DNA from: Psammoneis japonica
Lineage: Eukaryota
Reading direction: 5' to 3'
Assembly (NCBI GenBank): GCA_008632985.1
Contig: QPGO01000190.1
Location: 1-64,000, forward strand
DNA: 64,000 nt
Both the position numbers and the translations under genes were made by a program. Shown here one piece after another: positions 36,752 through 64,000 of this stretch. Every line of letters starts with the position of its first letter. The stretch's first letter is position 1. The notes below the pieces were generated by a model, which saw only the letters and a list, made by a program, of their open reading frames with translations, searched no databases and had not been told where the DNA came from.

Positions 36752-36755
<4 letters not shown>

Positions 36756-36793
<38 letters not shown>
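36756..36793. repeat. (CT)n microsatellite
   Basis: Uninterrupted ctctct run. Confidence 0.95.
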
Positions 36794-36798
<5 letters not shown>

Positions 36799-36880
36799 GT
36801 AGAGTAGAGCTATGCCCTCTCTAGACCTAGTAGAGTAGCTACTAGTCCTAGAGTAGCTATCGTGTCAGTAGCTACGGTAC
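36794..36880. repeat. Second CTAG/TAG/CTA-rich tract
   Basis: ctctagtagagtagagctatgccctctctagacctagtagagtagctactagtcctagagtagctatc. Confidence 0.75.
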
Positions 36881-37095
36881 CTGACGACTCCTCGCGACTG
36901 TTTCAAAATATCTCCTACGTTCGCGCATATTATGAAATATTGTTTTTGGCGATCGGACATTCTGACATAAGTTTTGCAGTACGACATTCTCGTATATTTC
37001 TACGACGAACCTGCTGTTACAAGAAAAATCAAACCCTCGCGTGTTTCAAACAGAATAAGACCACACAATTCACGCTGATTTCAATCACATCCACA

Positions 37096-39053: not shown

Positions 39054-39532
39054 TTTGAATGCATGCGGGAAAGAAAATACACATGGGGAAAGGGGAGAGC
39101 GGGAATCCGATATAGAAAGAGAGAAACGAGCGGGAGTTAGAGACGGGGAATGGAGTATTTAGAAAAGAGAATACATCGATTTGTAGAGCGGAAGAAAAAG
39201 AATCAGAAAAATGGCGAGGCAGGAAGAAGATTGGGTTCAGAAAGACCTGTAGGTAGTAACACTCACTCTTGCTATTGTTTGCTTTACCGGTTCCGAGTGG
39301 ATGATTTGAATCTGGCGGCGGGTTTTCTGACCATATGCTAGATCCGTGTGTATGAATAATCATGGTGCAGTTGCTTTCGTGAAAGTGGCGATCGGTAAGT
39401 TACGGGTGAGCAGCGATATTCTTTTGACTACAGAATCTTCGTGGCGCCTGCAGTTCGGCACATATCACGCACAGCACGTACCTCTACATTCAACATTGCG
39501 GATTCGGCATTGTGGGGATTGAAAACCCAATT

Positions 39533-40575
39533 CCTGATTCAATGATTCCTTGTTAGGACTGAAAAAGCACCATTGGCTGTGGACAGTGTGGCGCTTGCAC
39601 CGTGGACGGATTCAGCCTTGATTTTGCATGGCGTACTTGACAATTTTTTGATAACTCTACTAGTCGGAACATTTTCTGTTGGGCGTTTCACAACGTAGTA
39701 TGAATTTTGTTAGGAACACTTGGCGGGCTTACGGAGAGCATTGAAGAAGATGCACGTTCAAATACATGATGAAAGCTCGTACCTTTACCTAACTCATTCT
39801 GCAGGCTTTGTTTATTCAGCGTGTAGTCTACCAAGCTTTGACTTTGTCCAATGCTAGCGGTTCTCGCCTCTTGCAATTCTTGTTGTTCGATCTTATTGAC
39901 ACTGCTGCTACGGAGTAATTCACGAAAGTCACAAAAATCTTGTCAATTTCCACTCACAACTCTTCAGAGAGAGGTCACCAATCGTCTTAACCGCAGAGAT
40001 TAAATCTACTTCGACTGACGGCTATATTTGTGATGTATGGGAGCTGCGATCTGGAATCCCCGCCCCGCGGTAGCTCCACAATCGCTGCCCTGTCGATGGA
40101 TATTCACCCATTTTCAATACCTAGACAAAGGCACGGTCCGTTTTGAGCCCTGTAGAAGCATCCTACATGGGTGGTGGCGAATGTCAGTTTGGTCCTACTT
40201 GTGAATGCCTGATTCGATGATTCCTTTTCGAGACTGAAAATAAAGCACTATTGGCCATGGACAGTCAGTGTGGCGATTGCACCATGGGCGGATTCAGCCT
40301 TTTTTTTATGAAGTACAGTACTTGGCCATCTTTTTTAAATAACGCTATTAGTCGGAACGTTGCTGTTTGGGGTTGCACAAAGTAGTATGATTGTGTAAGG
40401 AACACTAGGTACTTCTAGGCATACGTAGAATGCGTGATGAAAGCACATACCTTCAATACACTCGTTCCGTAGGCTTTGTTTATTCAGCATGTACGAGTAG
40501 TCTACCAAGCCCAATATAAGTAGTTCTCGCCTCTCGCAATTCTTGCTGTCAGTCTTGTTGGTCACTGCTTCTACG
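39533..40575. repeat. Diverged direct duplication: 39533-39912 and 40208-40575
   Basis: Shared colinear blocks cctgattc.atgattcctt, ggattcagcctt, tagtcggaac, ggctttgtttattcagc, gtagtctaccaagc, ttctcgcctct.gcaattcttg. Confidence 0.85.
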
Positions 40576-43500: not shown

Positions 43501-45733
43501 GTGCTGGTCTTCTTGGAGTGTGAGAACTTGTGACTTTTGTCACCTCTGCTGCTGGCAGCAACCACAACTTTGGCCTTGGTCTCCAGGCATTTGGCATTCA
43601 TCAACTGTGTGAGGCCAGTTTCTGCAAGCACTGAGTGCAGCACTGGCAACTCTTTGGAGTGAATGTTGAACCCACAAGCGCCAGTGTTCCCAAAAAGGAA
43701 TCCTGTCAGGCTTTGTGTGCCTCTTGACACACTTGTCTTGGTTGGTGGCAGTGGCTGTGGTGTGATGAAAGTTGTCAATGTAAACTTCAATCTTGCGGTG
43801 CACAACAGGTGCCCAGTGATGCCAAATGACAAACCAAATGATTCCATCCAAAGAGCAAGATGAAGCTGAAAGGTGAGAGATCAGCAATGGTGAAACTTTT
43901 CCCGGTGGTGGGTTGAGGGGGTTGCCCATGGTGCATGAAAGATGCAAAGGCTTCAGACTTTCTTCTTGTCAGCTGCTCACAGCAGTTGTGAAACAGCAGA
44001 AAATGAAAACTTGCAAGTGTGTGTGGCAAGAGTGAGCACCACATGGTGATGGGGCATTGGCAGACAGGGCAACAAGCAGCGGCCTCTGCCAGCCAGTGGT
44101 TGTGAAGCAGCAGCACAGCACTCACCAAGGAGGGGACACTGCATCAGTTGTGGGGCTGCCCAGCAGCAGGGCCATCTGTGTGGCACCATCAAAGCAGCAG
44201 CAAAAATCACCAGACATCCCCACATGTTCCACCAACAAGTCCATCTGAGAGCAGGTGTTTGTTGCAACATCTCAGTGACCATGTCAACATCAGACCATTT
44301 GAAGGCCAACAGCTGGGTTTTTGATGACTCAGTCAGGTCAAGGAGGACAAAGCAGTCTGTTGGGACAAATGCATGCTTTCTCTGCTTCCACCTTCTCAGT
44401 TTGCTTTTGCAGCCCAAGAGCTCAGGCTCACAGCACAGCAAGAAAATGAGGCCACTTCAGATGTGAGGAGTTGTTGAGGCAGAGGGGCAATGTCAACAAA
44501 AAAGAGCTCTGGGGTGTCATGTTTTGGTGCAGGCTTGCACTGCCATTGCACAAGCTGTGCTGCTGCCTTTGGAAGTCAAAACTGTTGAAACAGCAGCATT
44601 TTTGGGCAATCTGGGAGCAGCCATGATCACAGTTGGCATCAACGGCTTTTTAGTTGCTTGACATGACATCACTTGAAAGTTGCAGTGTGCTCACTGTCAT
44701 GACAACAAAGGCAAAGCTTCCCTTGGCTGCACATGGTGTGTGCACCTTGCTTGTGCACAACAAACATTGCTGACAATTGTCAACCTCACAAGGAGCACAC
44801 ATGCCCTGCATTGAGATGCACCCCCAGTCCTTTGCAAGGGTGCAGTTTTGTGGCTTGTGTTCATTTGCTGTGCAGCTGTTGCTCTTGCACTCATGCATCA
44901 GTCTTCATCACAGAGCCAACAGGCTTCAGGCTTTCATGCCTGTTGTGGCCTGATGCTTGCAGCAACAGTTGTTTCCTTTGCTGAAATGGGGTGGTTGGTG
45001 CTGCACCACTGCACTTCAATTCAACGGCATCAAAATGAGAGACAAATCAACATCTGAGGCCATTTGCCCAGTTTTTGATCACTTGCACTAAAAGGGTGTC
45101 ATTTGCTCTCAACTCAAACACCACTTTCTCATCTGCTGAGCTGCTGTTTGTGTGTTGGTGCAGCTGGACTGGCTGCATGTGCTGTCAAGCCAATTTTCTG
45201 CCTCAATGGCAAGCTCTTCTTTTTCCCATTGCTTGCCAGTCAGACTTGAAAATTTGAGAACAACAGCCACCTTTGGCACATCTCCATCAACTGGAGGGGG
45301 GCAAGACAGGGGGCATCACGCTTTTTTCACTGTCCCAAGAACTGGTCAGATGGTTGTGACAGAGAAGAAGTGCCCATTTGATGGCAGGCACATGCTGCTT
45401 TGCCTTTGGCACACATCTGCTGGGCTGCACTTTTTTCTGGCAATGTTGGCACACTTTCAAGGGCAGCAACATCTGCTCTGCCAATGAAGGCCCCCAGCAC
45501 CTTCTAAAAAGGCAGCTCTCAAACATGCACAATCTTTCCTGCATCAAGCATTGGGTGGCTTGGTGGAAGGCAAACCAGCTGCAAAACAAAAATGGCTCAG
45601 AGCATTGCCAACTGCAGAAGAGCCTCAAATGCACAAAACTTTTTGTTGTCAAGCTTTTTTGTTAAATCCCAACTGCTTTTGTTCTTTTCAGAATGAAGTC
45701 CAGTGTGCACATCTCTGCACTTTGTTGCCATGC

Positions 45734-46443
45734 NNNNNNNNNNNNNNNNNNNNNNNNNNNNNNNNNNNNNNNNNNNNNNNNNNNNNNNNNNNNNNNNNNN
45801 NNNNNNNNNNNNNNNNNNNNNNNNNNNNNNNNNNNNNNNNNNNNNNNNNNNNNNNNNNNNNNNNNNNNNNNNNNNNNNNNNNNNNNNNNNNNNNNNNNNN
45901 NNNNNNNNNNNNNNNNNNNNNNNNNNNNNNNNNNNNNNNNNNNNNNNNNNNNNNNNNNNNNNNNNNNNNNNNNNNNNNNNNNNNNNNNNNNNNNNNNNNN
46001 NNNNNNNNNNNNNNNNNNNNNNNNNNNNNNNNNNNNNNNNNNNNNNNNNNNNNNNNNNNNNNNNNNNNNNNNNNNNNNNNNNNNNNNNNNNNNNNNNNNN
46101 NNNNNNNNNNNNNNNNNNNNNNNNNNNNNNNNNNNNNNNNNNNNNNNNNNNNNNNNNNNNNNNNNNNNNNNNNNNNNNNNNNNNNNNNNNNNNNNNNNNN
46201 NNNNNNNNNNNNNNNNNNNNNNNNNNNNNNNNNNNNNNNNNNNNNNNNNNNNNNNNNNNNNNNNNNNNNNNNNNNNNNNNNNNNNNNNNNNNNNNNNNNN
46301 NNNNNNNNNNNNNNNNNNNNNNNNNNNNNNNNNNNNNNNNNNNNNNNNNNNNNNNNNNNNNNNNNNNNNNNNNNNNNNNNNNNNNNNNNNNNNNNNNNNN
46401 NNNNNNNNNNNNNNNNNNNNNNNNNNNNNNNNNNNNNNNNNNN
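45734..46443. other. Assembly gap (710 N)
   Basis: Run of n. Confidence 1.
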
Positions 46444-46449
46444 TGTGAT

Positions 46450-46660
46450 CCTTGTGAAGAGTCCCCACCCTTGGTTTCCCAAGTTTTGGTTGTGGATTTT
46501 TCATTCTTGATTTTGGTGTGAATTGCTCAAAATTGCAGTTGACAATGTTCCGCCATCACAGAGAATGTGCAGAGGCTTGTTCTTTGCTTTGCCCAAAGAG
46601 GTGCTCACATGAGTGATGACTGCTGGACTGGTGTGAATTGCTTTTTTGGGGCTTCCCAAT
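46450..46660 (-). mobile_element. Degenerate retropepsin-like aspartic protease fragment, probably from a Ty3/Gypsy LTR retrotransposon
   Basis: TSLGKAKNKPLHILCDGGTLSTAIL followed by KSTTKTWETKGG resembles the ILxDSG protease motif and flap; abuts the gap. Confidence 0.5.
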
Positions 46661-49600
46661 GTCCAGCAGTGCGCAAGACTCCTCGAGCAGCGCCAGTTCA
46701 GAATCACTGCACATCACAAGAAGTGGATGTGGTGGTGCTGTTGAAAATTCTCCAGCCAATCTTGTTCAATGCAACTGGGAGAGTCTGCTTGCATGTCTGG
46801 GCAGTTGAGGCTTGGAAGCAGTTGGAATTGATTTGTCAAGACAAAGAAAAAGCACTTCCAAGATTGCTGCAATCAGCTCACAAGTGTTTTGAAATGGCGG
46901 AGGGTTTGTGGCAGGGTTGTCCCAGAAGAAATTTCCAAGAAAGGAGATGGGTTGGCACAGATGCCAATGACACCTGGAAGAAAGAGAGGAACAAGTTGTT
47001 GGCAGCACTGTCAATGGAAGGTGTCAAGAAACATTGGCTTGTCTCAAAAGACCTGTGCTGGCAATTTGCACTGGGATTCACAATTGTCCATTTTGGCCAA
47101 GGAGGCACTGCAGGTGTTGGACACAGGCAGGGCCAACAAAAAACCTGAGGGCACAAGTCTTGTGCAAAATGAGAAGAAACAGCTCAAATGCAAAAGGTTG
47201 GGCATGTGAAAAAGGACTGTCCTTTGCTCAATGACAACAGCGATCATTTGTTGGTGGAGACACATGACATCAGCTGTGGAGAGAAACAAGGCAGTCAATG
47301 TGGCGCTGGATGGCATGGTTTTCAAGTGTTGCCCTCCTGCAGCCAGTGTGCATGAGGCCAATCCATTGATGGTGGCTTGTGCAAAGGAGTGTGTTGGAAC
47401 ATTGGGGAGCAAGGCAGTTTTCGACAATTGTGGATGAGGTGAAGTTGCACTCACATGAACTTTTGGTGAGTTGTGGGTCTTGTGCTCACTTTTCAGCTTT
47501 TGCACCTGCTGGCCAACATGGCAACAGTGGCAGCGGCAATGGAAATGCGGTGTTTGCAATCCACATGCGGCAAGTTTGGGGATCAGCGAGACCAAGTGTG
47601 TGCCACATTCAGCAAGCTGTGGAATCACAGCACCGCTGCAAGACCCCCCTCTGAAGTTTTTTTTGGCACAACAGGCTCCTGCAAAAGGTCAAAAGTGCCC
47701 ACAAGTGGCCAATCAAGGTCCCACACAGAAAGCATGCAGGTCCAAGGAAAGGAAGCCATTCTGAACATTTTGGCCCAGTGTCACAAGGCCAATCTCAAAG
47801 CCACCAACAGCTGTTCATTTTCACTGTTCCATGCTGAAATTCACATGTGTGGTGCGTCGTCCACAAAAAGGCTGCCCCCACACTTGGAAACCAAAAAGGC
47901 ATTTTCTGTGCTTGTCATGAGAGAAAAAAAACATGATGCTGTTGGTGCGCACACACTTCTTGATGCAGACAATGCTGTCTTGCACCTTGATCAATGGTGC
48001 GACAACCAACACATGATCAAAGAACAAGCCCCATGGCAGAAGATGCAGCATCATTGTTTGTTGTGCAATGTGCATTGCATTGGGCACAATTTCAAGTTGT
48101 GACATCATGCACCATGGAAATTTGTGGCTTTTTGTGCAGTGATGAAGCACAGCACAGTGAACTTGACACCTGCCAAGAAAACAGCAAGCATGCAAGAACT
48201 GCACGTGAGCCCCTCAACTTGCCAGGATGTGGTGGTGCAAAGTGCTCAAAGTTGCCACAAGGATGTTCAGATTCTCAGCTTGCCAAAGTGAGGTGACTTT
48301 GCCAAATCTGACCTGCCAACCACCTGGAGAGGCCAGGTGCCACCCTGTCCTCTTCTTGAACAACTCTGAGCTAAAGCCTGCCAGCCAACATGCAAAGGAA
48401 AAAGTTGAGAAGGCTGGGTGGTTGTCTGCCAGGGAGTCTGAGCATCTGATGGCTCAATTGCACAGATGCACCTGCTGCTTGGCTGCTTTAAAAAAGAAAG
48501 AGCTGTGCAGAAACAAGTGTGAGACAATGAGCATGCTTTTGCGAGATTCTTGCTGGCAATGGCACATGTGCCATGCTGGCAGACACACCAGACAACTTGT
48601 CAATCTGCAGAAAAATGCAGCAATTGGCAAAAGCGCGCCACTCACAAGTGTGCTTGTTTTGTTTGGCAATGGGGCCTGGATTTGACTTCATTCTAGAGTT
48701 CCCCAATTTTGCAGCAGAGCTGCAGAAAGTCTCTCCCACACACACACCAGATGACTTGTTCATTGAACAAAGCAAAGCAAGGGATTTTTTTTCTGACAGA
48801 GTGGCAAAATCATGCTCAACAGGAGCAAAAAAAAGATCCACATGTCTCTCTTTCTTTTTCAACACAGACAAAACCAACAAAAAAGAGGGTGCTGCAGTGT
48901 GGCAGTCACCAAGCAAACAATTTTGCAAAAAGTGTCTCCAAAGAAAGTCTGTTGGGCCTTGTTTGAGCTTTTGAGCAAGGGGGGCTCTGGGGGGCACAAT
49001 GCAGCAAGAGAAGCAGAGCTGGTTGGAGGCAGCATGATGATGTGTGTTGTGCAAGCAAGTTTGAGTGGTGGACCTTTCCCCAATTTTTGTTGCTTCTTTT
49101 CTCATGTCTGATCATTTTAAAGTGCTTGAGCAGTGTGAACAATCTTCAAAAGGTGGTCATTTTTTCCTGAAAACAAAGTGACAGGAACAAGCTGCTGTGT
49201 GGCTGCCACTGGTTTTGCTGCCTCTTGGAGCCATTTTTTTTGTCTCTTCTGCTGCATTTGGCTGTTTTTAACAAGAAATGTCAGCATTTTTTACAGTGCA
49301 ACAAGGAGCTCAGATGCAAAAAAGTGACTTTCTAACTGAAGTCATTTGGACAGAACAATCAGGAGAGCTGAGTTTTGCTTTTTTTGGCGCACACCATTGG
49401 CTGTCAGAAAGACCAAGTGGTGGTTCGCTGACCTGTGTGGGAGTCTTGTGGGTGATCTGCATGCTGGCATTGAAAAAAGTTTGTTGACTGTGAAGCAACT
49501 GTGCAATGTGAAAGACAGCAGAAGAGGTGACAACAAAATGTTGACAAATTTCAATGCTTGGAAAAGAAGTTTTGTCTCAGACAAGTGAAGCAAAATGGCC

Positions 49601-49802
49601 ACAACATCTGGACATTGCCAATGTTTTTCATCTGGCTTGCAACATTGGACACTTGTTGCACTTGCCCACGGCATTTTGGTTGTCATGCACCACCAAAGCT
49701 GAGTGCAAAATCTCTCTTTTTTGTTTGCACAAAAAAATTGATGTCATCCATGACAGCACAATGCAAAAAATGTGCAAGTGCATGAGCCACCAAGACACTC
49801 TC

Positions 49803-49803
49803 C

Positions 49804-49834
<31 letters not shown>

Positions 49835-49995
49835 GATGTTGATGATGTTGATGATGACGATGATGTTTGCAGCTGGTGCCAAGTTGACAGAGACAAGGGT
49901 TGTGAAGAGAAATCTAAAGGAGTTCCAGAAAGAAAGACACCAAGCATGCAAACATCAGCGAGCTCTCCACAAAACAAAACAAAACAAAACAAAAC
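49803..49995. repeat. (GTT)n/(GAT)n microsatellite at 49803-49866 and (CAAAA)n at ~49969-49995
   Basis: Direct reading. Confidence 0.9.
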
Positions 49996-51084
49996 CACAA
50001 AGAGCAACTCAAATTGCAGCCAAATGACCAAGTGGGCTGCAGCCTTGGGCTGTTGACCTGTCTTAGAAAATGAAAGTTGCCTTCTCACCTTGGTTGCAAC
50101 AGCTGTTGGTTCATAAATGGCAGGGTTCATGGCAGCAGCATGGTGCATTTTGGTGTGTGCAACTTGCAACTTGAGTCACACAAAACACATCATCTTCATT
50201 TTGGAGCTCAGCAGTTTTCTTGCGCGGGTTTGGCACCAAACATGATGCAGAACACACAGAAACAAACCAAAAACCTCATGATTCATTCTAAAGTTTCTCA
50301 TTTGGAGATCTGTCTGCCCCAGCAGTGGTGAGCTGCAAGTGGCACAATGCCAGCAAATGGCAGTTCCATGCACAAGCACTGGCCAACCTTTGCGAGACTG
50401 GAGGGCTTTGTTGTTTTGCAGCCACGTTTCTGTGCGAATGTTGGCACAACAAAGTTTGTAAAAATGCCCAGCTGATTGACAAAAACATTGCACACTGCAC
50501 TCAAAAGTGTGCTGGCTGGCACAACTGCTGTTGCATTGGATGTTTGCAGGCACTCAGCACACAAGAAAGAGAGGCAAGTTTGGCGCCAATGTTGGCTCCT
50601 CCTGTCATGGTGGTGAGTTCCCCCACCCAAGCAACCATGGGCTGCTTTGACTGGCAATCATCATGATTTTGCCTCAATCCAAGTTCCAAAGACACACGCC
50701 ATCAAACACACACTGGAAACCTGCCTCTGTTGTGTGGGGCGGGGAAGACCTCACAACAAGAATGGCTTGGCTCCGGCAGATCTGATTCACAATGAGGATG
50801 AGAGGATCCATTTGCCCTTGACAGACAACTGAAGTGACCACTGCAATGGTGGCGACAATGTGTTTCAAAGAGTCAAATGGCAATTTTGTGTGCTTTGTGC
50901 AACAACAACTGAGCAAAGTTTGTCCAGGGTTCAAATGGCACGAGCTCCGAACTCCCGAGACTTCCTTCCTGCAGCTGGATCGCACAACAACAGCGCTGCG
51001 GTCAGCAAGCAAGACAATGACGATGGTGCTTCTGTGTCGCGACGACGACTCTTTGTCTCTTCCTCGGCGACAAACTCATCTATC

Positions 51085-51360
51085 ATGGCTGAGGACAGCA
51101 CGGTCACGATGCCTCCTTTTGTCCGTTTGCATGTTCCTTTCATCATGCGCAACAACAACGCATGCCATCAAGCCGGTGCGTTTTGAGGATCTTCTCAGCA
51201 ATGAAGAACATCGTCATGTGGCCTCACCGCCCCAGACCGAGAGCCCGAAGGATGTGAAAGAACTCCACATGAGTCAGCCATTGGATCACTTTTCCATGGA
51301 GGAACTTGTGTCTGACGCTGAAGGATCTTTGCAGCAGCGGTGCTTCCATTCGGATCGACC
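51085..51360 (+). pseudogene. N-terminal fragment of a peptidase S28 (Pro-X carboxypeptidase family) gene
   Basis: Signal-like hydrophobic stretch then ELHMSQPLDHFS...SLQQRCFHSDR, matching family pattern QPLDHF...FxQRYF with Tyr replaced. Confidence 0.65.
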
Positions 51361-51404
51361 ACGCAAGGTCATCTTCAACGCATGGAACTTCGTTTTCATC
51401 CTTG

Positions 51405-52045
51405 TGGCAGTCTTTGTGGCCCTGAAAGTGGTGAAGAACAGTCAAGCTTGTGCACAACAAGCAGCTGTGGAGATCAATGTCTTTGGGACTGAGCAAAGAC
51501 AAGGATTTCTTGGCCATTAACGTTGAAGCGAAAACCGCAAGATGGTGCACCTGCAATCGTACAGTCCGCATCAGAATCACCTTTGCTTGGTGTTTGAATT
51601 GTTGGGGATGAGTGCATGAGAGGTTTTGAATCAGCGGCAGTTCAGAGGGTTGCCCTTGACAAAGGTTCGGCCGCTGCTCATGAAAACAATGGACGGCAGC
51701 GTGAAGGAATTGTGTTGGCGATCAATTGTTCGACCGAGAAGGATTTTGATTCAAGCAATGTCAAGTTGATTGCTTTCGGCTCGGCTTGCTGTGAAGGACA
51801 CATGGCTCACACCTGCATTCGATCTCGGTTTTACCGCAGCCCAGAAGTTCTTCCACTCAAGGGCCACCCTGCGATTCCGCTTTTGACATGTGGTCCTTGG
51901 GACGCGTGGCGGCAGAACTGTTCCTCGGATTGTCCATTGCCTCACGGTTGTGAACACGATCAGGTGAGGCGAATTTGTGAAACAATTGAACCCATTCCAG
52001 ACATTGCGCATGCTTGGCGAAAGGTGCGTGTCATTCTTTTTATTT
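51405..52045 (+). pseudogene. Yak1/DYRK/HIPK-family protein kinase fragment, copy 1
   Basis: VALKVVKNSQACAQQAAVEINVF, HLCLVFELLG, QRQFRGLPL, VKLIAFGSAC...HTCIRSRFYRSPEVL, DMWSLGRVAAELFLG; catalytic loop missing; frameshifts. Confidence 0.88.
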
Positions 52046-53644
52046 GATGCTTTCTGTTGAACGGACGCATGTGCCAATTTGTTGTTGCACGCTGCTCATC
52101 GTTGTTCAGTGCTAAATTTGTCCAAGCACTTTGCAAACTCCACTTCCAATTCAGAAACTGCTTCAACTCCAATGCAGCCACAAACCGGCACAGACAGCAA
52201 CAAGAAGCCATCATGTTCGCCTCCACCCAAACAATTGTGGCGCATCAAGACACAGCAAGAATGTGTGCGACCCTCTTTTCCGTCAAGAGTTTTCCAATTG
52301 CCATTCTTTTTGTCGTCATGGGTTGTGGGCAGTCTGGCACGATTTTGCTTTAAAATGCGGCGCCCGTGTTCAACCAAACCCCTTGTTGCTGAGCACGACC
52401 TTGGACAAACACATCTTCCACAATGGCAGTTGCGGCTTCTGTTTCAGATGGATCTTCGCTCGCGTCGGAAAAGCTCTTGACAAGGGCGTCCTGAAGTGGT
52501 TTGGGCAAGTTCCGGTTGCCGCGAACGCAAAGCATGCCGTTGGCACGCTCACGCAACAATGACGGGCATCATCGGCAATGGCAACCAAGTCCTGCACGTG
52601 TGTCTTGCTGTTCTGAGGCACAGCCTGTGTCGTCAATGGCGTCAGCACAAGGCGACAATGGACAGGCGTCGGCAAAGTGTCGAGTGAGGTGTGCAGCATC
52701 ACCCGATCTGACTCAAGCAACACCTTCAAGGACGCGTCCTCCTCGGCACCAAATGATTTGTAACTGGCCGCGAGCTTCTTGGGACACTTTTTTGTCCTTT
52801 GTCGGGTCCTCAACGATTGTTGACATTCTGATGGAGACCGCCCTTGAGATTGTCGACCAAGCCTGAAACGGGCCTGGTGGATTCGTGCGGCACATGAGAT
52901 GCTTGATGCTGATGGTCGCAACCTGTTTGGCAATCTTTGGACAAAGTGGACGCTCTTAACCAACAACCTGGCACTCAACAATGGTCTTGGTTACCTCACT
53001 TGCACTGTCAGCGGATGATTGCAAGTGGACGATGTGAAATCGAGTTTTCAAAAGCGCGAAAGAGATGTTCTGATTGTGGTGCGTTTTCTAATTTTTGTTT
53101 TGTTTTCACAATCTTGATCTGTGGGCCTGACACTCCACAGTGTGCCAACTAAATCCCTCTCGAGCCCCAGTCCCAGTCCCACACCCCCATGCCTGCCATG
53201 CTAAACCCAACAATCCATGAGCTTCTACCTTGCACGCAAAACGCCCGTCTAATGTTTGTTTCTCGTTTTCTCATTCTATTCCGCCAGTCCTGCAATGGTT
53301 TTCGACTTGAACATTGGAACAAGTGTTGCTGCTGTTCAACATTGGCTTTCAGAGGCGATCTAGATCTTGCATTCTCTTCAACCGGTGTACAAAACCAGCT
53401 CCGAAACGGCGGCCAACTCACATGTGTCCTCTTGACAATGCGTGCCTCAATGCGAGATCTGGACAGCCTCTTCCAACTTTGCTGCTGCAGTTTAAACTCG
53501 AGTGCCAAGATGCAAGTGAATGCACACCACAAGCTGACATCTGAAACAATTTCTGCCCAACACGTCTTCACGACAATGCAGGCCTGAACGAAAAATAAGA
53601 TGTGCAACCACAGACGATCTTCTCCACCCGCAACAGCAAAAAAC

Positions 53645-55220
53645 TCAGCCTCGTCGCACTCCCTGCAACTCGGGAGCCGGACATTCCTCCAGGTGCTTGT
53701 CAATCGTCTGCCTCTCGCTCCCATCCACACATTTAATGTCGCAATGCGCCACGAGATCATCATCAAAGTAAACCCAGAGAATCTTGGCCAATGCACGAGT
53801 GTTGTTGCGGCAGCAATGCACGTCTTGGCCCTTCTCGTACTTGGACGTCGGTTTTTTGGGGGCGGGAGATAGATTCTTTTCTTCTGTCTGTCGCTCTCTG
53901 CCATTGGAGAAGAGGACAGTGTAGTGCGGAGTTTTGTCGTCAAGGTGAATGCCAATGATCTTGGCAGAAGCGACGTCGTTGGCATTGCTGTTCGTGTGCT
54001 TGACGTTCTCGCCGACTTTGCACTGGGGCTTTGGAGGGCTCGGCTTGTGAGGCGATGCTTCAATGTCGTCGTTTTCTGACGTTGGTGTTTTTGGGATGGG
54101 CGACAGATTCTTTTCAACCGTCTGCCTCTCTCTGTTGTTAGAGAAGAGGACAGTGTAGTGTGGAGTTTTGTCGTCGCGGTGAATGCTGATGATTTTGGCA
54201 GAAGCGACATCGTTTGCATTGTTGTTCGTGTGCATGACGTTCTCGCTGATTTTGCACTGGTGCTTTTGAGGGCTCGGCTTGGGAGGCGATGCTGCGATGT
54301 CGTCTTTTTCTGACGTTGGTGTTTTTGGGATGGGCGATAGATTCTTTTCAACCATCTGCCTCTCTCTGTCATTAGAGAAGAGGACAGTGTAGTGCAGAGT
54401 TTTGTCGTCAAGGTGAGTGCCAATGATCTTGGCAGAAGCAACGTCGTTGGCATTGCTGTTCGTGTGCAAAACTCTCTCACCGACTTTGCACTGGTGCTTT
54501 GGAGGGCTCGGCTTGACAGGTGAAGCTTGGACATTGTCTTTTTTTGGTTTGACGTTGTGGTGGTGCTTCGGAAGGCTCGGCTTGGGAGGTGAAGCTTTGA
54601 CGTTGTCTTTTTCTTTAAAATCGACGGAGGGTGGGGGGTTGTAGTTTGAAGACGGCTCGTGAGCCACTCCACTGTTGGAAGCAGTGCCGTTGGCAGAGCT
54701 GAACGCAAGAAATGGAACATCAAAGAAAGAAGGTGACGTTAGAAGCAAGCGTCACAACAATGGGCAGCACAACAAGAGCAACAAAAACTTGCGATGCAAA
54801 TGGCTCATTGACGTCGTAACGATGCGTCTTGCGTTGCGCCTCCACAAAGTGGCTGCGACAAACGTGGGGAGGCTGGTTAAATTCAGAACAATTCCACCTT
54901 GTCTGCTTGGGCAATGCCGTAGCAAGGATCGTACAGAGCCAGAGGAGAAATGCAACCACAAAGGTTTGGACGACGATCCAGACGTCGATGTTCCTCAACA
55001 AGCAACACAAGACGAAGCAGAGCACCGCGCACACTGGGAACTCTTTAGGATCCCTGCGCAGGCAAGAAATGGCTCGGCCATAGTTGCCAATGAGAAACAA
55101 AGCGTTCAAGAAGAGGAAAGCGCACAACATGGTGACATTGTTGATGCGACACTTTACTTTCTTGCCAGAACTGCGATTGTGAGACGAAGAAAGCACGTGG
55201 GAAAGTGCGTGCTTGCGCAT
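53645..55220 (-). pseudogene. Relic gene with N-terminal membrane segment and three 234-bp (78 aa) repeats plus a diverged fourth of a Tudor/SH3-like module
   Basis: CKVGENVKHTNSNANDVASAKIIGIHLDDKTPHYTVLFSNGRERQTEEKNLSP x3; fourth unit YEKGQDVHCCRN...AKILWVYFDDDLVAHCDIKCVDGSERQTIDKHL; fold is inferred. Confidence 0.65.
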
Positions 55221-56189
55221 TTCAGATTTTCATGTGCAGGGAATCGTGTCCGCGAAGTGGCAAGTTGGTTTTGACACAATTTAAACCGGTGCTGGGTTTG
55301 ATCCAAGTGATCATCTCGAACCCAAACTCAGAATGCCGCTGCAATCTTCATCGTCATGGCCACAGCGCTTTTTCTTTGCTCGTTTGCTCCTGACGCAACT
55401 TCGCCACAAGTTTGTGAGGCAACAAATCTGTGTCGTGCTTTCCGTTGACATGCACATGAAAGACACATTGTACATTGATTGTGGGGCTGTTGATGGACAA
55501 AATTTTTGTGCTGTTGATTGATCGCTTTTTCGCACGTGCTGCCCTGCCAGCACCTGACCGCACCACAAGACCATGGTCAACACTTTGCTGCTGCGGTCCG
55601 GAATCTCTCTCTTGGCAAAACCACCTGACACCCTTGCTTTGCAATCGCCAGGGGATCGCTGGAAATGACTGTGTCTGGTTTTTTCTCAGATGACCTGCAT
55701 CCTGTGCAAGGTGGCTCGTGGAGTGAGTTCCATGCTCTTTGTCCAGCCAGGATGCCAGGAACTCGTGCAATCTGCACGCAATGGTTTCGATCATGCAAGA
55801 GCTTCAGAACCATCCCGATCACATGGAGATCAGCTTCCAGTCAGAAGAACATTCAAGTCTCCAGATCTGGGGATCTTTCTGAACATGGTTCCACAATCTC
55901 CATGGATTGGCTGCTTGTGCGACGTTGCTTGCTTTGACGGCATCTCCTGTTGCGAGCATGCTGTCAATGCAAAGCTTTGTGGATTCTTTGGATTCTGCTG
56001 TTGTTGACCCAACAACAGGGTCTCATGATTTGACCACTGCACATTGCACCAGTTGCTCAACTTTGTGGAACGAAAAGACCCAGAAACTGGAAATGTCGCT
56101 TTTGATGCTGTTCGGACAGGCATTTTTCGAGATGGGAATGTGGTGCAGTTTGACCCCTTGTCTCCTGCAACGGAACAACCAACATGAGG

Positions 56190-56700
56190 TGCCTCTGCCT
56201 CCTCCCAAAGGTCCAGGTGGATTGCAGCTGCAGCACCTGAACGGGGCACTGCGTGGCTTCGGATTTGCCCTTTCGGTCATTTTAATTCTTCTTTCCATTG
56301 CATTTGGGGTCTGAACCATCCGCTGCAGAATGGGCAGAGTCATCAAGGCGTCACAGCCCATTTTCTTGCTTTCAACATGTGGCGGTGTCTTGTCAATGGG
56401 GTGGGTCATTCTGTGTGATGCTGCAGCCATCTGTGTTTTGCCGCATTGAGTGAAGACAGGGCTCGTGCAATGTTTCCATTGCGCACTCTTGTTTGTGTTG
56501 TTGAGGTTGGCCATCATTCCTTGATTTCAACATCAAAATTGAGAGCAAAGCGAGATGGATGAGATGTTTCTTCTCAAAGCACACCTTGGCTGTTCATCCT
56601 TGGTTTCATTCTTGCGCCAATGGTCGCTCTCCTGCTTGTTGATGCGGAGACGCTCACAATTTCAATGGGATGGATCTCTTGGCATGGGAGCATGGGCCAC
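56190..56700 (+). pseudogene. Class C (GABA-B-like) GPCR 7TM relic
   Basis: HLNGALRGFGFALSVILILLSIAFGV*TIRCRMGRVIKASQPIFLLSTCGGVLSMG matches the TM1-TM2 pattern WTxxxRxxxVIKASQPxFL. Confidence 0.7.
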
Positions 56701-56989
56701 TCCAAATGGATGTGTGTGGGCAGACAGTGGAGACAGGAGGAGCCAGCAAGTCTGACTTGTTTGAAGGGTGCGTGTCTGTGCCAGCCATTGCCAAACACAA
56801 GTGAATTGGCAGCAGGGCTTCCCATGTCATCCGGGATGTGGGCAAAACTTTTGTCACTTCTCTCAAATCTTGCGAGTGAGTTTTCAAGTGTTCTGCAACA
56901 GGCAAAGTGGAGAGGAGTGCTTTTCAAGTGCAGAGGAAGTGTGGATTCATTCCAGTTGAGTTTGCCCTGGGCCCGTCTCTTGATCTAGA

Positions 56990-57560
56990 GAGTGCAGCCA
57001 AGGCTGACCCCGAAACCTTTTCTGAACATCTGTTTGGATCTGCCAGTCGCAGTGATGATGTGCACAAAGATTTTGGATGGAAATCAATTGGGATGCTGAA
57101 AGCAATGATTGGGCAGGCTGCAGGAGGGATGGTGGCTGGGACACAACAAGCAGCAGTGATGACATGGTCGAGAACCATCACATTGAGAGCACTTTGGATC
57201 AAAATGTCAAGGAAATGAACAAAGAATGCAGTGCCAAAGGAATTGAATGTTGCTGCACATTTTCCAATCTTAGAGGAGATGTGACTTTGATTGCACCTCG
57301 CCAGAGGAGTCTGTCTCCATTGCTCAGAACATTGGATTCGCGCATCTTGCCAAATGTGTTGAGCAGAGATCCTCAGAAGAGGCAGGAGAGCTGAAGTCTT
57401 TGGTTGCAAGAGAGTGTGATGAGATGCCAATGAAGCACAGGGGCTCAAATCAACTGGCATTCCTGTCCACAACAAATGACTTGGTGGTTCATTTTTGCAT
57501 TTCCAACTGGAGCAACTTTCAAAGTGTTGCCACTGTGAAGCATTCTGTCTGGCATTGGAA
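56990..57560 (+). pseudogene. Relic of an uncharacterised family (DUF6940-like, recalled from memory)
   Basis: ADPETFSEH, TFSNLRGDVTLIAP, AHLAK, FLST, LGGSFLHFQLEQLSKCCHCEAF follow the pattern FxNLGGDAxLIAP...HLA...WLST.GLGV.WLHxRLD..PKYY. Confidence 0.5.
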
Positions 57561-60500
57561 TCAGCAAGTGCGTGAGAAAATTTTGTTTGTTCAGCGGCGT
57601 GCTTCCATCTTGGCGTTGCTCGGTGACATCAGGCTTGTCTCAAACTAATTCACTGCATTTGAAAAGACATTGTTTGTTGTCGGAAATCAGGAGATGTGCA
57701 ACATCCAAGGCAGGAAATCAAGAAGGGTTTCGGGGCAGCGGGGGTGGTGGCTTGCATGCAGAGGAGAACAAGATTTGCTGGAGAAGGAGGCACTGGATGT
57801 TTGTGGTGTCCGTGTGTTGGGAACATCACTGTGGTTAGATGCCGCAGTGCAGGCCGAAATGTCAATGAATGAGCAGCGCGCTTTGTCATTCACCCAAACG
57901 GACGACGGCACAGAGCTTCAAAATTGTCAGCAAAAAAGAAACAATTCAATGGTGTCGAGAAAATCTGCAGTGGTTGCGGGATGAATTGGTTGAGGCACCG
58001 CATGAAGGGATTCTCACCACATGCCTCAATTGGAAGGGACTGGCCATCCCAGGTGTGATGTTGCTTTTCATCCGATTTGACCGAGCTCCTCTCATTCCCA
58101 ATCAGTCTCCAGAAATGTGGTCACACCTGCTTTAATTTCATTGGAAACACACGTCCACTCTCCAACCAGTGGGGTTGTAAAGCCCATGAGAAGCCTGGTC
58201 ATTGTACAGATGGTTTGGTGGTTGGAATCACCAAACCCCAGTGCTGTTGGGGAGGAGACAATGAGTGTGCTGACAGGATTGGAGGTGAAGTTCAGCAGGC
58301 ATGGTCAAGCTCAGTGCATCCATTCTGGTTCTGATGTCATGTTGGCTTCTGTGTTGCACATCCTGACTGGGCAATCATCAAGAGATGCTCTTGGAAACTG
58401 GATGCATCATGTGCCTCATGGCGCAACTTCTTCAAACATCTTGCTGCCAACTGAGTGCTGTGCGCAGCTCTTGCCCAAGCCCATGGCATCGGCACACCCG
58501 GCATTTGACCAGATAAATCCATTGGACAAACAGCGTTGCAATCTCATTGACCGCACTTCATGAGCATCCAAGTTTTGTGCCAAAGCCACCACAACATCAG
58601 CTTGCACCTGTGTCTGTTCCATCATTTCTACATCGGCTGTGAGGTTCTTGTCATTGCCCATGATGGAGGCCCCTGACTCTGTGCCACAGTCACATGACAA
58701 GGCTTGCTTCATTTTGAAGTTGGCGACCATGATTTCTTCCACCCAAATGACATTTGATCTTCTGACAGCCAACCACATTTGGCTTTTTGCCTTTCCTGAT
58801 CTGTTCTGGGGTGCCACCATTGTCTTCCTCATTTCATGCCACCTTTGCTTTGGACATCTCCCTCCTTTTGTCCAAAAGAAGCATCAACAAGGCCCCCCAC
58901 TTCAGCAGCAACATCAGCTCCACTCATGGCAGGTTGTTCAGATCCACCTGAGCAGATTTGTCAGATTCAAATGCCAGCAAAACTCCCTCTAGTTGCAGCA
59001 GGGTTGTGACTTTTGTTGAGCACCAGGGAAGAGCACAGCTGGGTGAGGAGCATTCCTGCTCCTGTCAAACTGGCAAGGTGCGCCATGAACAGCTCCAACC
59101 CATTTGGGTGCAGCTGCTGGGGCACAAGAGCAATTTTTTCATCCTGCTCCCAAAGTGCATGGCCTGCTTGCGGGCTGGCAGCAGGCGAGGTTGACCCAAC
59201 TTTGGGTCAACCCACACAGCAGCAGTTGTGCAGATTGGCACATCTTTCAAAGGTTTGCACTGCTTGGATGTGACAAAATTGGTGCCAGCAGCACCACAAG
59301 CATCAGGGCACAAGCCCAGGTTGTTCTTGGCAGCCATGCTGTCAGCAGCTCCAGCTGACAAAATGGAGTGGATGAGTGCTCACCAAGAGTTGTTTGCCTG
59401 AAAACATTGTGTGGTCCAAGCTGCTGGTTTGGACAGCAATGATCTTGAGCCACTGTTCAGCAAGCAACCCTGGATTGCACACAGCAAGGCTGCCATTCTG
59501 CATGTCTGCAGACTGGCTCACAGGGGCAGCTGATCATGCAGAAGCACCTTGCAAGCCTGATGTTGCACACATGAGTTTCATGCAGGAAAGTCATGACCCA
59601 GCTGTTCATCCTGCAATTGGCACATCTTGCACAAAGGGGTGGCTTTGCAGAAGATGCACAGTGTCAAATGTGGGCTCAAGCTCTGCAGCATGTTTTGCTG
59701 CCCCATGCATGTGAGTTGTGCACAGAGTGATCTTGCAACTTCCATGGCACTGAACTCACATGTCACTGCCTGAGTGGTTGGACCCCATTCCTGTGCAGGT
59801 GGCAGCAATGTTGCCCCATGCAAGTGCAAAATTGTGTGTTTGCCAAGAGGGGAGCAAAGAGCAAAATTGCAGCGGCACTGCTCATGCAGTTGAGAGTGCA
59901 CACAATCATTTTTCAGAACCTTTGCCCCACTCAACAAAATGGCAGTGATGTGCTGCAACCTCACACATGTCAGCACAAGATGACAAAAATTCCAAGATTC
60001 AACTCATTTGACACAAACATGCTGCAGATGCTGCATTTCACACAACCAGCTGGAGAGACGTTGAAGCCAGCTGTGAGGCACAATGTCATGTTCAAAACTT
60101 TGTGACTGCCAACATGGCAGCAAATTGAGTGACTGAAACAGCTTGGGCACATGCACCAAATGGCTGAAGCAGAAAGGGGCTCACCTGAAAAAAATTTGAG
60201 ACACTGCTGCTGGCACATTTTTGACATTGCCAGGGGGTGTGGGCTGGACAAGACTTTCCTAGAAAGGCCATTGAGTGGCTCTTTCTAGAGCCAATGCTCA
60301 TGTTCTGATGCAAAACATTGGCTCTGCAGTGCACAGTTGTTTCACACAGAAGACATGCTGGTGCTGCTTCAGCATGCACGCAAGCATGCAGCAACTGTGA
60401 TCAAGGTGTGGCACATCAAACAAAAAGCCCAGATGTGATGCACAGCAAGAGCAGCTGTGCACACTTTTGCTTGAGCAAGAGATGTTGCTTGATGAAATGC

Positions 60501-63500
60501 TCAGAAGGTGCAAATCAAAACAACACAAAACATGAGAAATGGTTGTGCCATGAAGTCAACAGGCTCTTGCTCTGAAAGAGGAGGACCACTCAGCCACCCA
60601 GAACAGGCTGCAGACCACTTTGTTTGTGAGTGACTTCAGAGAAAAGAGCAAATGGATTGTGCAGATGCTTCAAAAATGCGGGGCAAAACAAACACTTGTG
60701 ACTGACAACATGGGCTCCAAGTGACATGCTGTGTTGTTCCCAACAACATGAAGAGAGACTCCAACAGGTGGACAAACTCCAACTGCAAAAAAGCTCACTG
60801 CTTTGTCAAATGTTTGATGTGAAGGAGAAACAACATGCTGTGAGAGCAGAACATGTTCAGTTTTGTCCTTTGCCCAGAAAGCAAAAACCAATTTGCTCAG
60901 ATGACAAGGGGAAAATTTTGGCTTGCACATGTTTGGGATGAGGGCACACATGATGAAAAAGCTCATCAGAACCTGCAACAAAAAGGTCAACTGACCTCAG
61001 GACAATTTCCAGATGTGCCAGCCATGGCCCACTTCAAGTTTTTTGCACAGCATGCAATCCCAGATGGGGTGCAGCGGATCATGCCAAGGCCCGTGCAAGC
61101 CTGTGCAGTTGGCTGCTTGAGTTCCACACAAACAAGTCATGACCCAACTGGACATTGTGCAAAACTGGCACAACTTGCATGAAGGGTGGCACAGAAGCTG
61201 CACAGCACCAAAAGCAGCCATTGTTGCACAGGCAGGAGCTCAAGCTTGCGCAGAGTGTTCTTGCAATTTCCACAAAATGCTGGACTTTCCATCACGACCC
61301 AATTGCCCAGACCCTGCTCCTGTGCTTGGGTGCAACCATTCATTCCTCAGCCAGAGATTTCTTGCAAGCCTTGTGCCCAAACTGGGTGCCTGTGCAAGCT
61401 TCTTGCTTTCCTGTGCACTTCATGCACAGCTCTTCTGAGTCCTTGGACTTGGCCTTCAGCTTGGCATTGGCTTGAGCAGGTTGCTCAATGTCAGCTGCTT
61501 TTTCCACAGTGTGGACCTCATTGTCAGACTTTTTTTGTGACAGCGGCCTTGTGTTTGTGTGCTGTCTTCTGCTCCTCACTCACACAGCTTGTTGGTTTGG
61601 TCTTGCCCTTTTCCATTGAGAGTGCGCCAATGCACTTTCTGCACTTGCTGATGTTTTTCCACATGAAATGCAGTCTTGCACAAAGGCAACTCAGCATTGC
61701 TTCTCTCAGCATTTCACACCACCAGAGCTTCAATGTGTGTCACTGCCACCACTCACAGAACAGCACTTGTGCACAGATTGCTGCTGGAAACTGTGCTGAA
61801 AGAGGTCACTTTGCAATGCACCAGCAAACCCAGCGCTGCCAGAAGGCTCCCAAGTGTCTGCTCAGAATGAGCAAGCCAGTGGAAAAGACCAAGAACTTCC
61901 CTGGCTTCTTCAAGAGTGTCTCTGACACCTTGTTGGAAACTGGCAAGAGCACAGAGGATGCTGGATGATGGATGGCAGGTGTTCCTGTGTTTGTGTTTGA
62001 GTGTGCACCATGGGCTGTGCAGAGAAAAAACATGGTTTGAAGGGCTGCGGGGCCTCAGAATGTGGCAAGAAGGGCAAAGGCCAGATGCCAACTGTCAGGT
62101 GAGCACCACATGTTTGAAGAGTGTGCTGGATGTTCTTGGAGGATGCATCTTGCTTCTTCTGTCATTTGAGGTTTAGATTTTTGATTGATTGTGGCTGACC
62201 CTGACATGTGGATTTGTGCTGCAACACAACCACAGCAGACATGGTCACGAGCACCTTGAAATGCTGCTGGCATGTGTTGACTGTCAAACAACTCAATGAA
62301 GTCATGAAGGTCAAACCAGGCAGAGCCAAAGAACTGATGTGTCGTCTGGGATCAGACGTTGAGAAACTTGAAACCAAGGCCAAGCATTCTGCAGCAGAGT
62401 CAGCCCCAAACAGGAACAAACACAAGAGTGTGACAAACCATCATGTGGTTTGAGAAGCTGTTGCAGTGGGTGTCATGAAAGGAAGATGGTGAAACTTGGC
62501 GGACATTTTGACAAAATTGGAAACAAATCATGGACATTTTCTCTGTTGTTCAGTTTCAAGTTGGACTCTTGTGCTGTTTTGTCGTCCGAAAAACAGCCAC
62601 CCGCCCGTGCGTCGTGCGTCTGCACGTGTTCACAGCACGGATGCTTTCCTGACGTCATCCTCATTTTTCTGCTCGGCTTGCTCACATCTCACATTTTTTT
62701 GGTTGGCGCTCCTGGCGTCCCGTTCACATGAGGCGCCTTCTCACGTTTCTTGTTGTGCTGATCGTGACCTGCACAGTTCACTCCTTTTGTCCGAGTGACA
62801 ATGGAGACCCACGAATTGCTTTCACAAAGTCGCGGCTTGAAGCAATTCCGGATGGAACCACCGCTGCCCTAATCGTTTCCGAGGCTTTGGAAGCCTCCCG
62901 GACGTCCTTTTTCATTTGTTTTTTTGGTGCTTCCGGTGCTGCTGTCATTGCCAGAAGCGTGTGCAAAAGTGTGGTGGAGATTCAAGAGCTGAAAGATGTC
63001 GGACCGACTCTGGGAGGATGAGAGACGCAGCATGGTCGGGCGCTCTTGGCGCTCCTGCAAGAATTGGTGACACACTGTTTTGATCCGGGAGCATTGCAAG
63101 GTGTGTGCATGCACCCCCTGGTGGATGCTCATGTGTGTGCATTGCATGTCTTGTGGAAGAGCTGTTCTTCTGACGCTTCCCATTTTCCCTCTTCTTTGTT
63201 TTAAGCAGTTGTTCAAGGCGGCGTGGAAGAAAACAGAGACACTCTTGTAAAAGGAATGATGAACCATTTGTTTGCCGGATCGGAACGTGTTGGAAGTTGG
63301 AATGGCGAGCATGCTGCATGTTGCGCGTGAAAGTGGAGGAATTGCACACGTGTTAATCTTGCCAACTGCTCTTTTCTCTCTCACAAAGATTGAGCCGAGG
63401 AACACATCATTTGGGGCAAAACTTTCTATGTGGGACAAACGTCATGTAAATGGAGTTTTGGAATTTGAAAATGCTGTTCCTGTTGACTTTGAATTGCTGC

Positions 63501-63697
63501 TGTGGAACTCATTTCCATTTCTGTTTTTGTAACCAAAAATTAGCGCGTGGCTCCTGATTGCTTGTTGGTGCACGAAAAGCATGCAGACGCCTTGCTCAAG
63601 GAACTCCAGTCCACCAGGCGGTGGAACGGCACGTTTGTGGCTTAAAGAGCCGCATTGCACTGGCACATGCGCATCTCAACTCACTCCCTGTTTATCA

Positions 63698-64000
63698 TGG
63701 CAGTCTTTGTGGCCCTGAAAGTGGTGAAGAACAGTCAAGCTTGCACACAACAAGCAGCTGTGGAGATCAATGTCTTTGGGTGCTGAGTCAAGACAAGGAT
63801 TTCTTGGCCATTAACGTCAAAGCGAAAACCGCAAGATGTGCACCTGCAATCGTGCAGTCCGCATCAGAATCACCTTTGCTTGGTGTTTGAATTGTTGGGG
63901 ATGAACACATGAGAGGTTTTGAATCAGCGGCAGTTCAGAGGGTTGCCCTTGACAAAGGTTCGGCCGCTGCTCATGAAAACAACGGACGGCAGCGTGAAGG
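63698..64000 (+). pseudogene. Yak1/DYRK-family kinase fragment, copy 2 (runs off window end)
   Basis: Near-identical to 51405-51707; similarity between the copies begins at the same tggcagtctttgtggccctgaaagtgg. Confidence 0.9.

What the first reader, a model, noticed from the sequence alone, without database searches (positions are those of the whole stretch)
51405..64000. Two copies of one kinase fragment record independent outcomes at the same ancestral sites
Seen: copy 1 has gct-TGTGCA-caa (51449-51454) and copy 2 has gct-TGCACA-caa (63742-63747). Copy 1 keeps cgTAc (51560) where copy 2 has cgTGc (63853). Copy 1 cgtTGaag versus copy 2 cgtCAaag; copy 1 aaTGg versus copy 2 aaCGg. Inference: ancestral TAT ACA (Tyr-Thr, fitting the Yak1-type K-N-x-x-A-Y motif) yields both forms by TA>TG or TA>CA, so mutation continued after duplication and acted on either strand.
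Basis: partly seen in the sequence, partly recalled or inferred. Interest (0 to 1): 0.72.

Follow-up and report, generated by a model that had tools for sequence, protein, structure and literature searches.

The report
Repeat copies lost TA steps independently
Dead copies of a kinase-gene fragment each had most of their TA letter pairs rewritten to TG or CA separately and recently, with neighbouring A letters sometimes changed too, which points to an enzyme that mutates adenine in silenced DNA.

Summary
All four letter differences are real. The fragment comes from one intact DYRK/Yak1-like gene and sits in a composite repeat. Seven copies are TA-poor, three keep TA. Against the parent, A>G occurs at 119 of 328 TA positions and at 1.6-5.6% elsewhere. 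Every pair of the seven copies differs by 19-34 TG/CA swaps, whether 7 or 58 transversions apart. So most TA were intact at the last duplications and were erased independently, on either strand, roughly 300 times faster than background. Two details of the reading fail: the parent has TAC ACA (the repeat's ancestor had TAT ACA), and aaCGg is a CpG gain. Added here: onset was late and similar in all copies; RTAY is fast and YTAR slow; same-strand A at -2 and +1 is co-converted (ATA>GTG, TAA>TGG); a Copia family shows coding-strand bias; 97%-identical duplicates can stay untouched. Best reading: a locally targeted adenine deaminase; no enzyme was identified. TpA hypermutation is described for viral DNA in Bigelowiella (preprint), and this scan noted TpA erasure on other DNA of this genome before.

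The parts
51405..52262 (+). Copy 1 of a captured, frameshifted DYRK/Yak1-like kinase fragment. It includes the parent's intron, so capture was at DNA level.
   Evidence: 79% to the intact gene on C66; intron sequence retained in alignment; parent is Pkinase E 1e-41, best PDB hits DYRK2/HIPK/DYRK1; the only intact close copy in the genome
63698..64000 (+). Copy 2 of the fragment; it runs on to about C191:64555 beyond the window, inside a second repeat unit (about 61.1-72 kb)
51449..51454 (+). Site 1: TGTGCA here, TGCACA at 63742-63747; repeat ancestor TATACA (inferred), parent TACACA
51524..51525 (+). TG here, CA at 63818-63819; TA kept in copy C3b; parent TC
51560..51561 (+). TA kept here, as in the parent; TG in copy 2 (63853-63854)
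51612..51614 (+). GTG here, ACA in copy 2, ATG in C284b: an example of ATA>GTG, the -2 A changed together with the TA
51000..55900 (.). Young island: CpG kept, TA erased only after the split from its duplicate on C153 (57 doublets, 8 transversions in 4924 columns)
53648..54751 (-). 368-aa open frame with 234-bp tandem units, weakly Tudor/SH3-like (DUF1918 E 9e-9, DUF4537 E 8e-5); part of the repeat unit
56000..59850 (.). 3' part of the repeat unit, erased earlier: 0 doublets against C153 over 56.0-58.7 kb, and half or more of its CpG gone
41500..64000 (.). TA-poor domain (0-9 TA per 500 bases against about 20 in gene DNA); it continues to about C191:77.5 kb
35827..41327 (.). Internal control: TA-normal DNA in the same 23-kb block duplicated on C153; 226 TA kept in both, 23 in one, 0 doublets
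59841..59852 (.). Empty site where the matching block on C284 carries a young Copia-type retroelement

Best explanation
What it is: two of seven TA-poor copies of a composite repeat that captured part of a DYRK/Yak1-like gene. Shown: after their last duplications or conversions, each copy independently lost about three quarters of its TpA to TpG or CpA, almost only by transitions, on both strands. Slower CpG decay started at about the same time. Targeting depends on local chromatin state or family silencing, not on being duplicated. Inferred: the mutator is an adenine deaminase of the TadA/ADAT2 kind acting on DNA in silenced chromatin (A to inosine, read as G). It needs T at -1, prefers a pyrimidine at +1, and sometimes also converts the A two bases before or one base after. 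The repeat's core stayed protected through most of its history and lost protection late, at about the same time in all seven copies. The pattern and timing are about 0.9 certain; the enzyme class about 0.55.
For: Polarity: against the parent, A>G occurs at 119 of 328 TA positions, 9 of 575 AA, 15 of 545 GA and 37 of 664 CA in 7 copies (pooled, shared history); at 6 of 152 TA in 3 TA-normal copies. Independence: 19-34 doublets per pair in 2432 clean columns while transversions range 7-58. Window vs C153, 51-56 kb: 57 doublets, 28 single-TA, 33 both-TA, 8 transversions, which implies 175-204 TA at the split (36-41 per kb, the normal density). The hazard is about 0.7 per A against 0.002 for other transitions. 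Both strands: 424 TG, 464 CA, 285 TA and 15 other outcomes at 176 sites. Late onset: inner branches carry 40 neutral changes and 2 CpG losses, tips 86 and 44 (Fisher p 9e-5). Tip CpG loss fits equality (p 0.20), not tip length (p 0.003). Context: fitted hazard by +1 base is T 2.1, C 1.4, G 0.7, A 0.5. Residual TA in young TA-poor DNA relative to normal DNA is ATAT 0.03, ATAC 0.05, CTAA 0.60, TTAA 0.82. Co-conversion in 32 Copia copies: A>G at -2 in 20 of 611 same-strand hits against 0 of 494 opposite-strand hits and 1 of 419 unhit; at +1, 13 of 372 against 0 of 466 and 3 of 884. The kinase family gives 5 of 86 against 0 of 143 at +1. The events fall on many sites and exceed native ATG/TGA contexts (18/1038 vs 22/4762; 12/652 vs 20/6548). 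Copia coding strand: 308 TG vs 149 CA, 254 TG expected from context, 43 vs 20 sites, p 0.005. U at -1 is the ADAT preference (PMC11156358, passages).
Against: No dedicated enzyme was found. The five PF14437 matches look like ordinary TadA, ADAT2, two dCMP deaminases and one deaminase-dioxygenase fusion (names are my reading of the motifs). TA is a palindrome, so sequence cannot tell a damaged A from a damaged T. No strand-coordinated runs were found (478 runs against 446 expected; the same in three other families), so there is no sign of long processive single-strand episodes. Fungal ADAT editing favours purines at +1, the opposite of what is seen here. The -2 effect is not clear in the kinase family alone (3 of 115 vs 2 of 151), and a per-site test of co-conversion was not significant (p 0.11 and 0.15). 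The kinase family has no strand bias (323 TG vs 321 expected). Doublets rise slightly with distance (rho 0.46; pairs are not independent), so a few hits may predate the last splits. Timing rests on 44 CpG losses in 7 copies with signs of gene conversion. Bootstrap bounds were partly undefined.
Confidence: 0.58

Rival explanations
1. Error-prone repair synthesis (polymerase eta/iota-like, G opposite template T) in methylated chromatin, triggered by repair of deaminated methyl-CpG.
For: Tandem and near-tandem same-strand A>G changes; TA loss correlates with CpG loss across 32 Copia copies (rho -0.52 for TA kept).
Against: AA is not raised (8 of 2861 singletons, like CA 8 of 2684 and GA 8 of 2310), whereas the WA signature of polymerase eta includes AA (recalled; search gave one review, not read). 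Only 15 of about 900 changed outcomes are not TG or CA. There is no excess at 3-5 bases distance. TA loss (about 75%) far outruns CpG loss (2-8%).
Confidence: 0.14
2. The damaged base is thymine: an oxidised T in TpA (5-hydroxymethyl- or formyl-uracil type mark) mispairs with G, giving T>C.
For: Formally identical outcomes because TA is palindromic; co-conversion can be read as neighbouring T on the other strand (TTA>CCA, TAT>CAC).
Against: The Copia bias puts the changed A on the coding strand, the strand exposed during transcription (recalled from AID biology), which fits A better. No TET/JBP match was found, but the control rang nowhere, so that search is inconclusive.
Confidence: 0.15
3. 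Targeting is RIP-like: pairing of any two similar sequences triggers mutation of both.
For: All 7-8 members at 85% or more identity are hit, while the parent and about 78%-identical relatives are not.
Against: A 5.5-kb stretch duplicated at 97% keeps 226 of 249 TA in both copies, and the C184/C389 pair keeps 149 of 164. Boundaries run through the middle of duplicated blocks. Copia copies of one family range from 0.24 to 0.92 TA kept. Caveat: some of these pairs could be allelic rather than paralogous.
Confidence: 0.08
4. No TA-specific process: TG and CA flip through ordinary CpG/CpA decay, or the differences are assembly errors.
For: CpG decay does occur (46 of 1742 against 0.2-0.3% for other C>T); some doublets lie where the parent has TG or CA.
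Against: Doublets occur at 12 of 29 parent-TA sites but at 5 of 108 parent-TG/CA sites and 1 of 32 CG sites. TA intermediates survive in sister copies. Context dependence and polarity against the parent are not error patterns.
Confidence: 0.03

Closest known systems
TpA-restricted hypermutation of integrated NCLDV and virophage DNA in Bigelowiella natans (bioRxiv 10.64898/2026.01.13.699255; read parts 1-3 of 5, abstract to conclusion, plus a term search; supplements closed)
   Same: TpA>TpG and TpA>CpA transitions on both strands, locally restricted, about 1000-fold there and at least about 300-fold here; TpA-poor, TpG/CpA-rich windows; the authors propose ADAT2-type deamination and a process that is not always active.
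   Different: There it is measured in accumulation lines on two viral regions with modest depletion (3.3% vs 6.0% TpA). Here it is near-saturating and acts on host-gene-derived repeats and a Copia element, followed by CpG decay, in a genome that earlier notes call a diatom. The main text has no mention of diatoms, trinucleotide or context, and the parts read report no flanking preference, neighbour co-conversion or strand bias; its Table S2 could hold such data and was not seen.
Repeat-induced point mutation (RIP) of ascomycetes (PMC2621366 and PMC7882544, abstract starts only)
   Same: Dense, dinucleotide-specific transitions that wreck repeats, copies mutated independently, genes spared.
   Different: Opposite chemistry (RIP makes TpA from CpA; this removes TpA); near-identical duplicates can escape; a link to sex was not tested.
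CpG decay in CG-methylated diatom transposons (DNMT5; PMC9998398, passages)
   Same: The same DNA also loses CpG to TpG/CpA, with the same late onset.
   Different: It is about 10-20 times slower here and cannot produce TG/CA swaps at ancestral TA.
Tad2-Tad3 (ADAT) A-to-I mRNA editing in filamentous ascomycetes (PMC11156358, passages)
   Same: Strong U/T preference at -1; a tRNA deaminase redirected to a new substrate is the template for the proposed mechanism.
   Different: RNA, not heritable DNA change; favours purine at +1, whereas here a pyrimidine is favoured.

Membership tests
Bigelowiella-type TpA hypermutation | Almost only A>G / T>C transitions at TpA | tested here: met
Bigelowiella-type TpA hypermutation | Both strands (TG and CA outcomes) | tested here: met
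   424 TG, 464 CA
Bigelowiella-type TpA hypermutation | Locally confined, rate orders of magnitude above background | tested here: met
   about 0.7 per A against 0.002 since the C191/C153 split; inferred from copies, not measured per generation
Bigelowiella-type TpA hypermutation | Target is integrated viral DNA | tested here: not met
   the target here holds a host kinase fragment and a Copia element; the preprint itself suggests wider targets
Bigelowiella-type TpA hypermutation | Same enzyme (ADAT2 proposed) | not testable with these tools
   an ADAT2-like gene is present, but such genes are universal
RIP | C:G to T:A transitions that create TpA | tested here: not met
   C>T at CA 5 of 2655 singletons, background level; TpA is removed
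RIP | Triggered by any long near-identical duplication | tested here: not met
   97% duplicates keep TA; caveat that they may be allelic
RIP | Premeiotic timing, RID-dependent | not testable with these tools
   no cross or mutant data
Polymerase eta WA mutagenesis | AA as well as TA raised (recalled) | tested here: not met
TET/JBP thymine oxidation | TET/JBP gene in genome | tested here: inconclusive
   0 matches, control silent
DYRK kinase (parent gene) | Kinase domain with best matches to DYRK/HIPK | tested here: met
Yak1 subfamily | Groups with Yak1 in a tree | not tested

The most novel reading that the evidence does not exclude
This alga has a natural DNA adenine base editor used as genome defence. 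It is recruited to silenced chromatin, edits TA*Y with a one-to-two-base bystander window, favours the non-template strand of transcribed retroelements, and can be switched onto all members of a repeat subfamily at once by a signal acting in trans.
Probability: 0.27. Interest if true: 0.88.

Novelty: new variant of a known kind. Interest (0 to 1): 0.64.

Why it matters
It extends a TpA-specific hypermutation reported once, for viral DNA in a rhizarian alga, to ordinary repeats and host-gene copies in another lineage, at near saturation. The copy family supplies testable fingerprints: RTAY over YTAR, ATA>GTG and TAA>TGG co-conversion, coding-strand bias, and late family-wide onset. These can pick out the enzyme, and can be checked at once in the Bigelowiella mutation list. 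In practice, divergence between repeat copies here is mostly this process, so repeat ages from raw identity are overestimated. The process removes TAA/TAG stops and creates none, which inflates false open frames in TA-poor DNA.

Tried and rejected
Strand-coordinated clustering: none. Off-target editing at CA: suggested by the pooled parent comparison (5.6%) but not by tip-only counts (8 of 2684); rejected. One finished genome-wide burst: three unrelated families share about 25-40% TA kept, but 32 Copia copies span 0.24-0.92 and flanks were erased earlier. A single burst is therefore unlikely; repeated episodes remain possible. Silencing of each copy at birth: rejected by CpG loss not scaling with tip length. 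Selection on the kinase protecting the TA-normal copies: those fragments also carry stops. Terminal inverted repeats of the repeat unit: none found in four regions; the unit's mode of spread is unresolved. Whether C153 is an allele of the window: genes at 27-35 kb have no second copy, which favours a segmental duplication, but this is not settled. Sequencing runs: no RNA holder listed. Contigs of one DNA run show alternative TG/CA doublets over the region; it may be the source sample and is not independent support. A paper for TadA/ABE +1 preference was not found. Literature searches for this process in diatoms returned only the Bigelowiella preprint as relevant; one search listed diatom small-RNA papers, not read. 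L113, a divergent Copia copy, was left out. The 234-bp tandem region was left out. Of the 41 Copia matches listed, 32 were aligned.
Full report
Observation. The two copies align over 51405-51707 and 63698-64000 at 95.4%, with 12 mismatches; 11 lie in or next to an ancestral TA. Both lie in a domain from about 41.5 kb to beyond the window end where TpA falls to 0-9 per 500 bases, against about 20 in gene DNA. Around the copies CpG is still near normal.

What the sequence is. The window is contig C191:1-64000 of a 91-Mb eukaryotic assembly. Earlier scan notes call it a diatom; I did not test that. A search with the fragment gave 14 matches. One, on C66, is an intact kinase gene with best structural relatives DYRK2, HIPK and DYRK1, and it is the only intact close copy. 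The fragment keeps the parent's intron and sits in a composite repeat that also holds a weakly Tudor-like tandem-unit frame. Seven copies are TA-poor but CpG-rich (two on C191, one on C153, two on C284, two on C3). Three are TA-normal though also broken (C389, C184, C81). One on C89 has lost both TA and CG (1 of 23 and 0 of 28 kept). No terminal inverted repeats were found.

Polarity. At positions where the parent is backed by a TA-normal copy, the seven copies show A>G at 119 of 328 TA positions, against 9 of 575 AA, 15 of 545 GA and 37 of 664 CA. The TA-normal copies show 6 of 152. TG/CA swaps sit at 12 of 29 parent-TA sites but only 5 of 108 parent-TG/CA sites, so TG and CA do not flip by themselves. 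Copies read TGTACA (3), TGTGCA (3), TGCACA (1) and TATGCA (2), which points to TATACA in the repeat's ancestor. At aaTGg/aaCGg the parent has TG, so copy 2 gained the CpG.

Independence and speed. In 2432 gap-free columns every pair of the seven copies differs by 19-34 doublets while transversions range from 7 to 58. A 23-kb block (35.8-58.7 kb) is duplicated on C153. In its 51-56 kb part there are 57 doublets, 28 single-TA sites, 33 shared TA and 8 transversions; the flanking 7 kb has 2 doublets, and the TA-normal 5.5 kb has none and keeps 226 of 249 TA. This implies 36-41 TA per kb at the split, the normal density (42 per kb). The hazard since then is near 0.7 per A, against 0.002 for other transitions, roughly 300-fold and a lower bound. 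Outcomes are balanced, 424 TG and 464 CA, with 15 others, and show no strand runs. Even the TA-normal control has 23 TA differences, more than background, so protection is not absolute.

Timing. Inner branches carry 40 neutral changes but 2 CpG losses; tips carry 86 and 44 (p 9e-5). Tip CpG losses are compatible with equality (p 0.20), not with tip length (p 0.003). So the core stayed protected for most of its history and began to mutate late in all seven copies. Its 3' flank was hit earlier, so the mutator was already at work nearby. The window's copy pair corresponds in position to the pair on C284 (shared flanks and an empty Copia site at 59841-59852), yet the two window cores are closest to each other. 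Gene conversion therefore homogenised them before erasure, and their split dates that event. A trans-acting family-wide trigger and repeated genome-wide episodes with inward spread both fit; the counts are small.

Fingerprints. The hit A prefers a pyrimidine after it (fitted hazards T 2.1, C 1.4, G 0.7, A 0.5). In 78 young TA-poor kb against 120 normal kb, ATAT is down to 0.03 and TTAA to 0.82; old DNA keeps mainly TTAA, CTAA/TTAG and CTAG. A neighbouring young Copia family (32 of 41 listed matches aligned) spans 0.24-0.92 TA kept, correlated with CpG loss, so the process is recent or ongoing. In it, a same-strand A at -2 or +1 is converted with the TA (20 of 611 and 13 of 372) but not when the other strand was hit (0 of 494, 0 of 466), with no excess 3-5 bases away. 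Events spread over 12 and 9 sites and exceed native ATG and TGA contexts 4-6-fold, though a cruder per-site test was not significant. The kinase family agrees at +1 (5 of 86 vs 0 of 143) and is unclear at -2. Window position 51612-51614 is an ATA>GTG case. Copia shows more TG on its coding strand than context predicts (308 vs 254; 43 vs 20 sites, p 0.005); the kinase family does not.

Mechanism. Clean transitions, strict T at -1, a one-to-two-base bystander window and coding-strand bias fit an adenine deaminase acting on exposed DNA in silenced chromatin (inference). Polymerase-eta-like synthesis should also raise AA (recalled) and does not. Thymine oxidation cannot be excluded, because TA is palindromic and the TET/JBP search was uninformative. 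No special deaminase was found among five PF14437 matches. Pairing of duplicates alone is not the trigger, unless the untouched pairs are allelic.

Comparison and novelty. The closest case is TpA hypermutation of viral insertions in Bigelowiella natans (10.64898/2026.01.13.699255; parts 1-3 of 5 read; supplements closed and may hold context data). It works like RIP in effect but fails RIP's defining chemistry and trigger. Searches found no paper on it in diatoms; subscription journals are largely missing from the library. Earlier scan notes report the same TpA erasure on other pieces of this genome; one gave me the preprint. A word search for timing and strand bias in those notes returned nothing. 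Verdict: real, a new variant of a once-reported process, with added timing and fingerprint evidence; enzyme unknown.

Noticed in passing
L078 (C284:19-27 kb) and L079-L089, L102-L121: Young Copia-type retroelement, 41 matches listed at mostly 95-96% identity; copies range from 0.24 to 0.92 TA kept, with coding-strand TG excess and neighbour co-conversion.
   Followed up: partly
L076:319-1791 minus (C79:87-90 kb): Open frame joining a zinc deaminase domain to a DIOX_N/2OG-Fe(II) oxygenase; probably nucleobase salvage, but worth a look as a base-modifying candidate.
   Followed up: partly
L074 (C41) and L075 (C317): Identical tandem-domain dCMP deaminase-like gene and neighbour on two contigs.
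   Followed up: no
L028:6500 to L029:2500 (C184) and L026:2500 to L027:4500 (C389): TA-normal islands of the same repeat inside TA-poor DNA, with a 424-529 aa open frame; sharp borders suggest local protection.
   Followed up: partly
window 1-2000 and 14500-16500: Two further TA-poor patches; the first has also lost CpG, the second holds a 108-bp tandem array and keeps CpG.
   Followed up: no
window 27742-29262 minus: Open frame with motifs that look like an [FeFe]-hydrogenase or Narf-like protein (recalled, not scanned).
   Followed up: no
window 35827-58716: 23-kb block duplicated at the end of contig C153, with uneven divergence along its length.
   Followed up: partly
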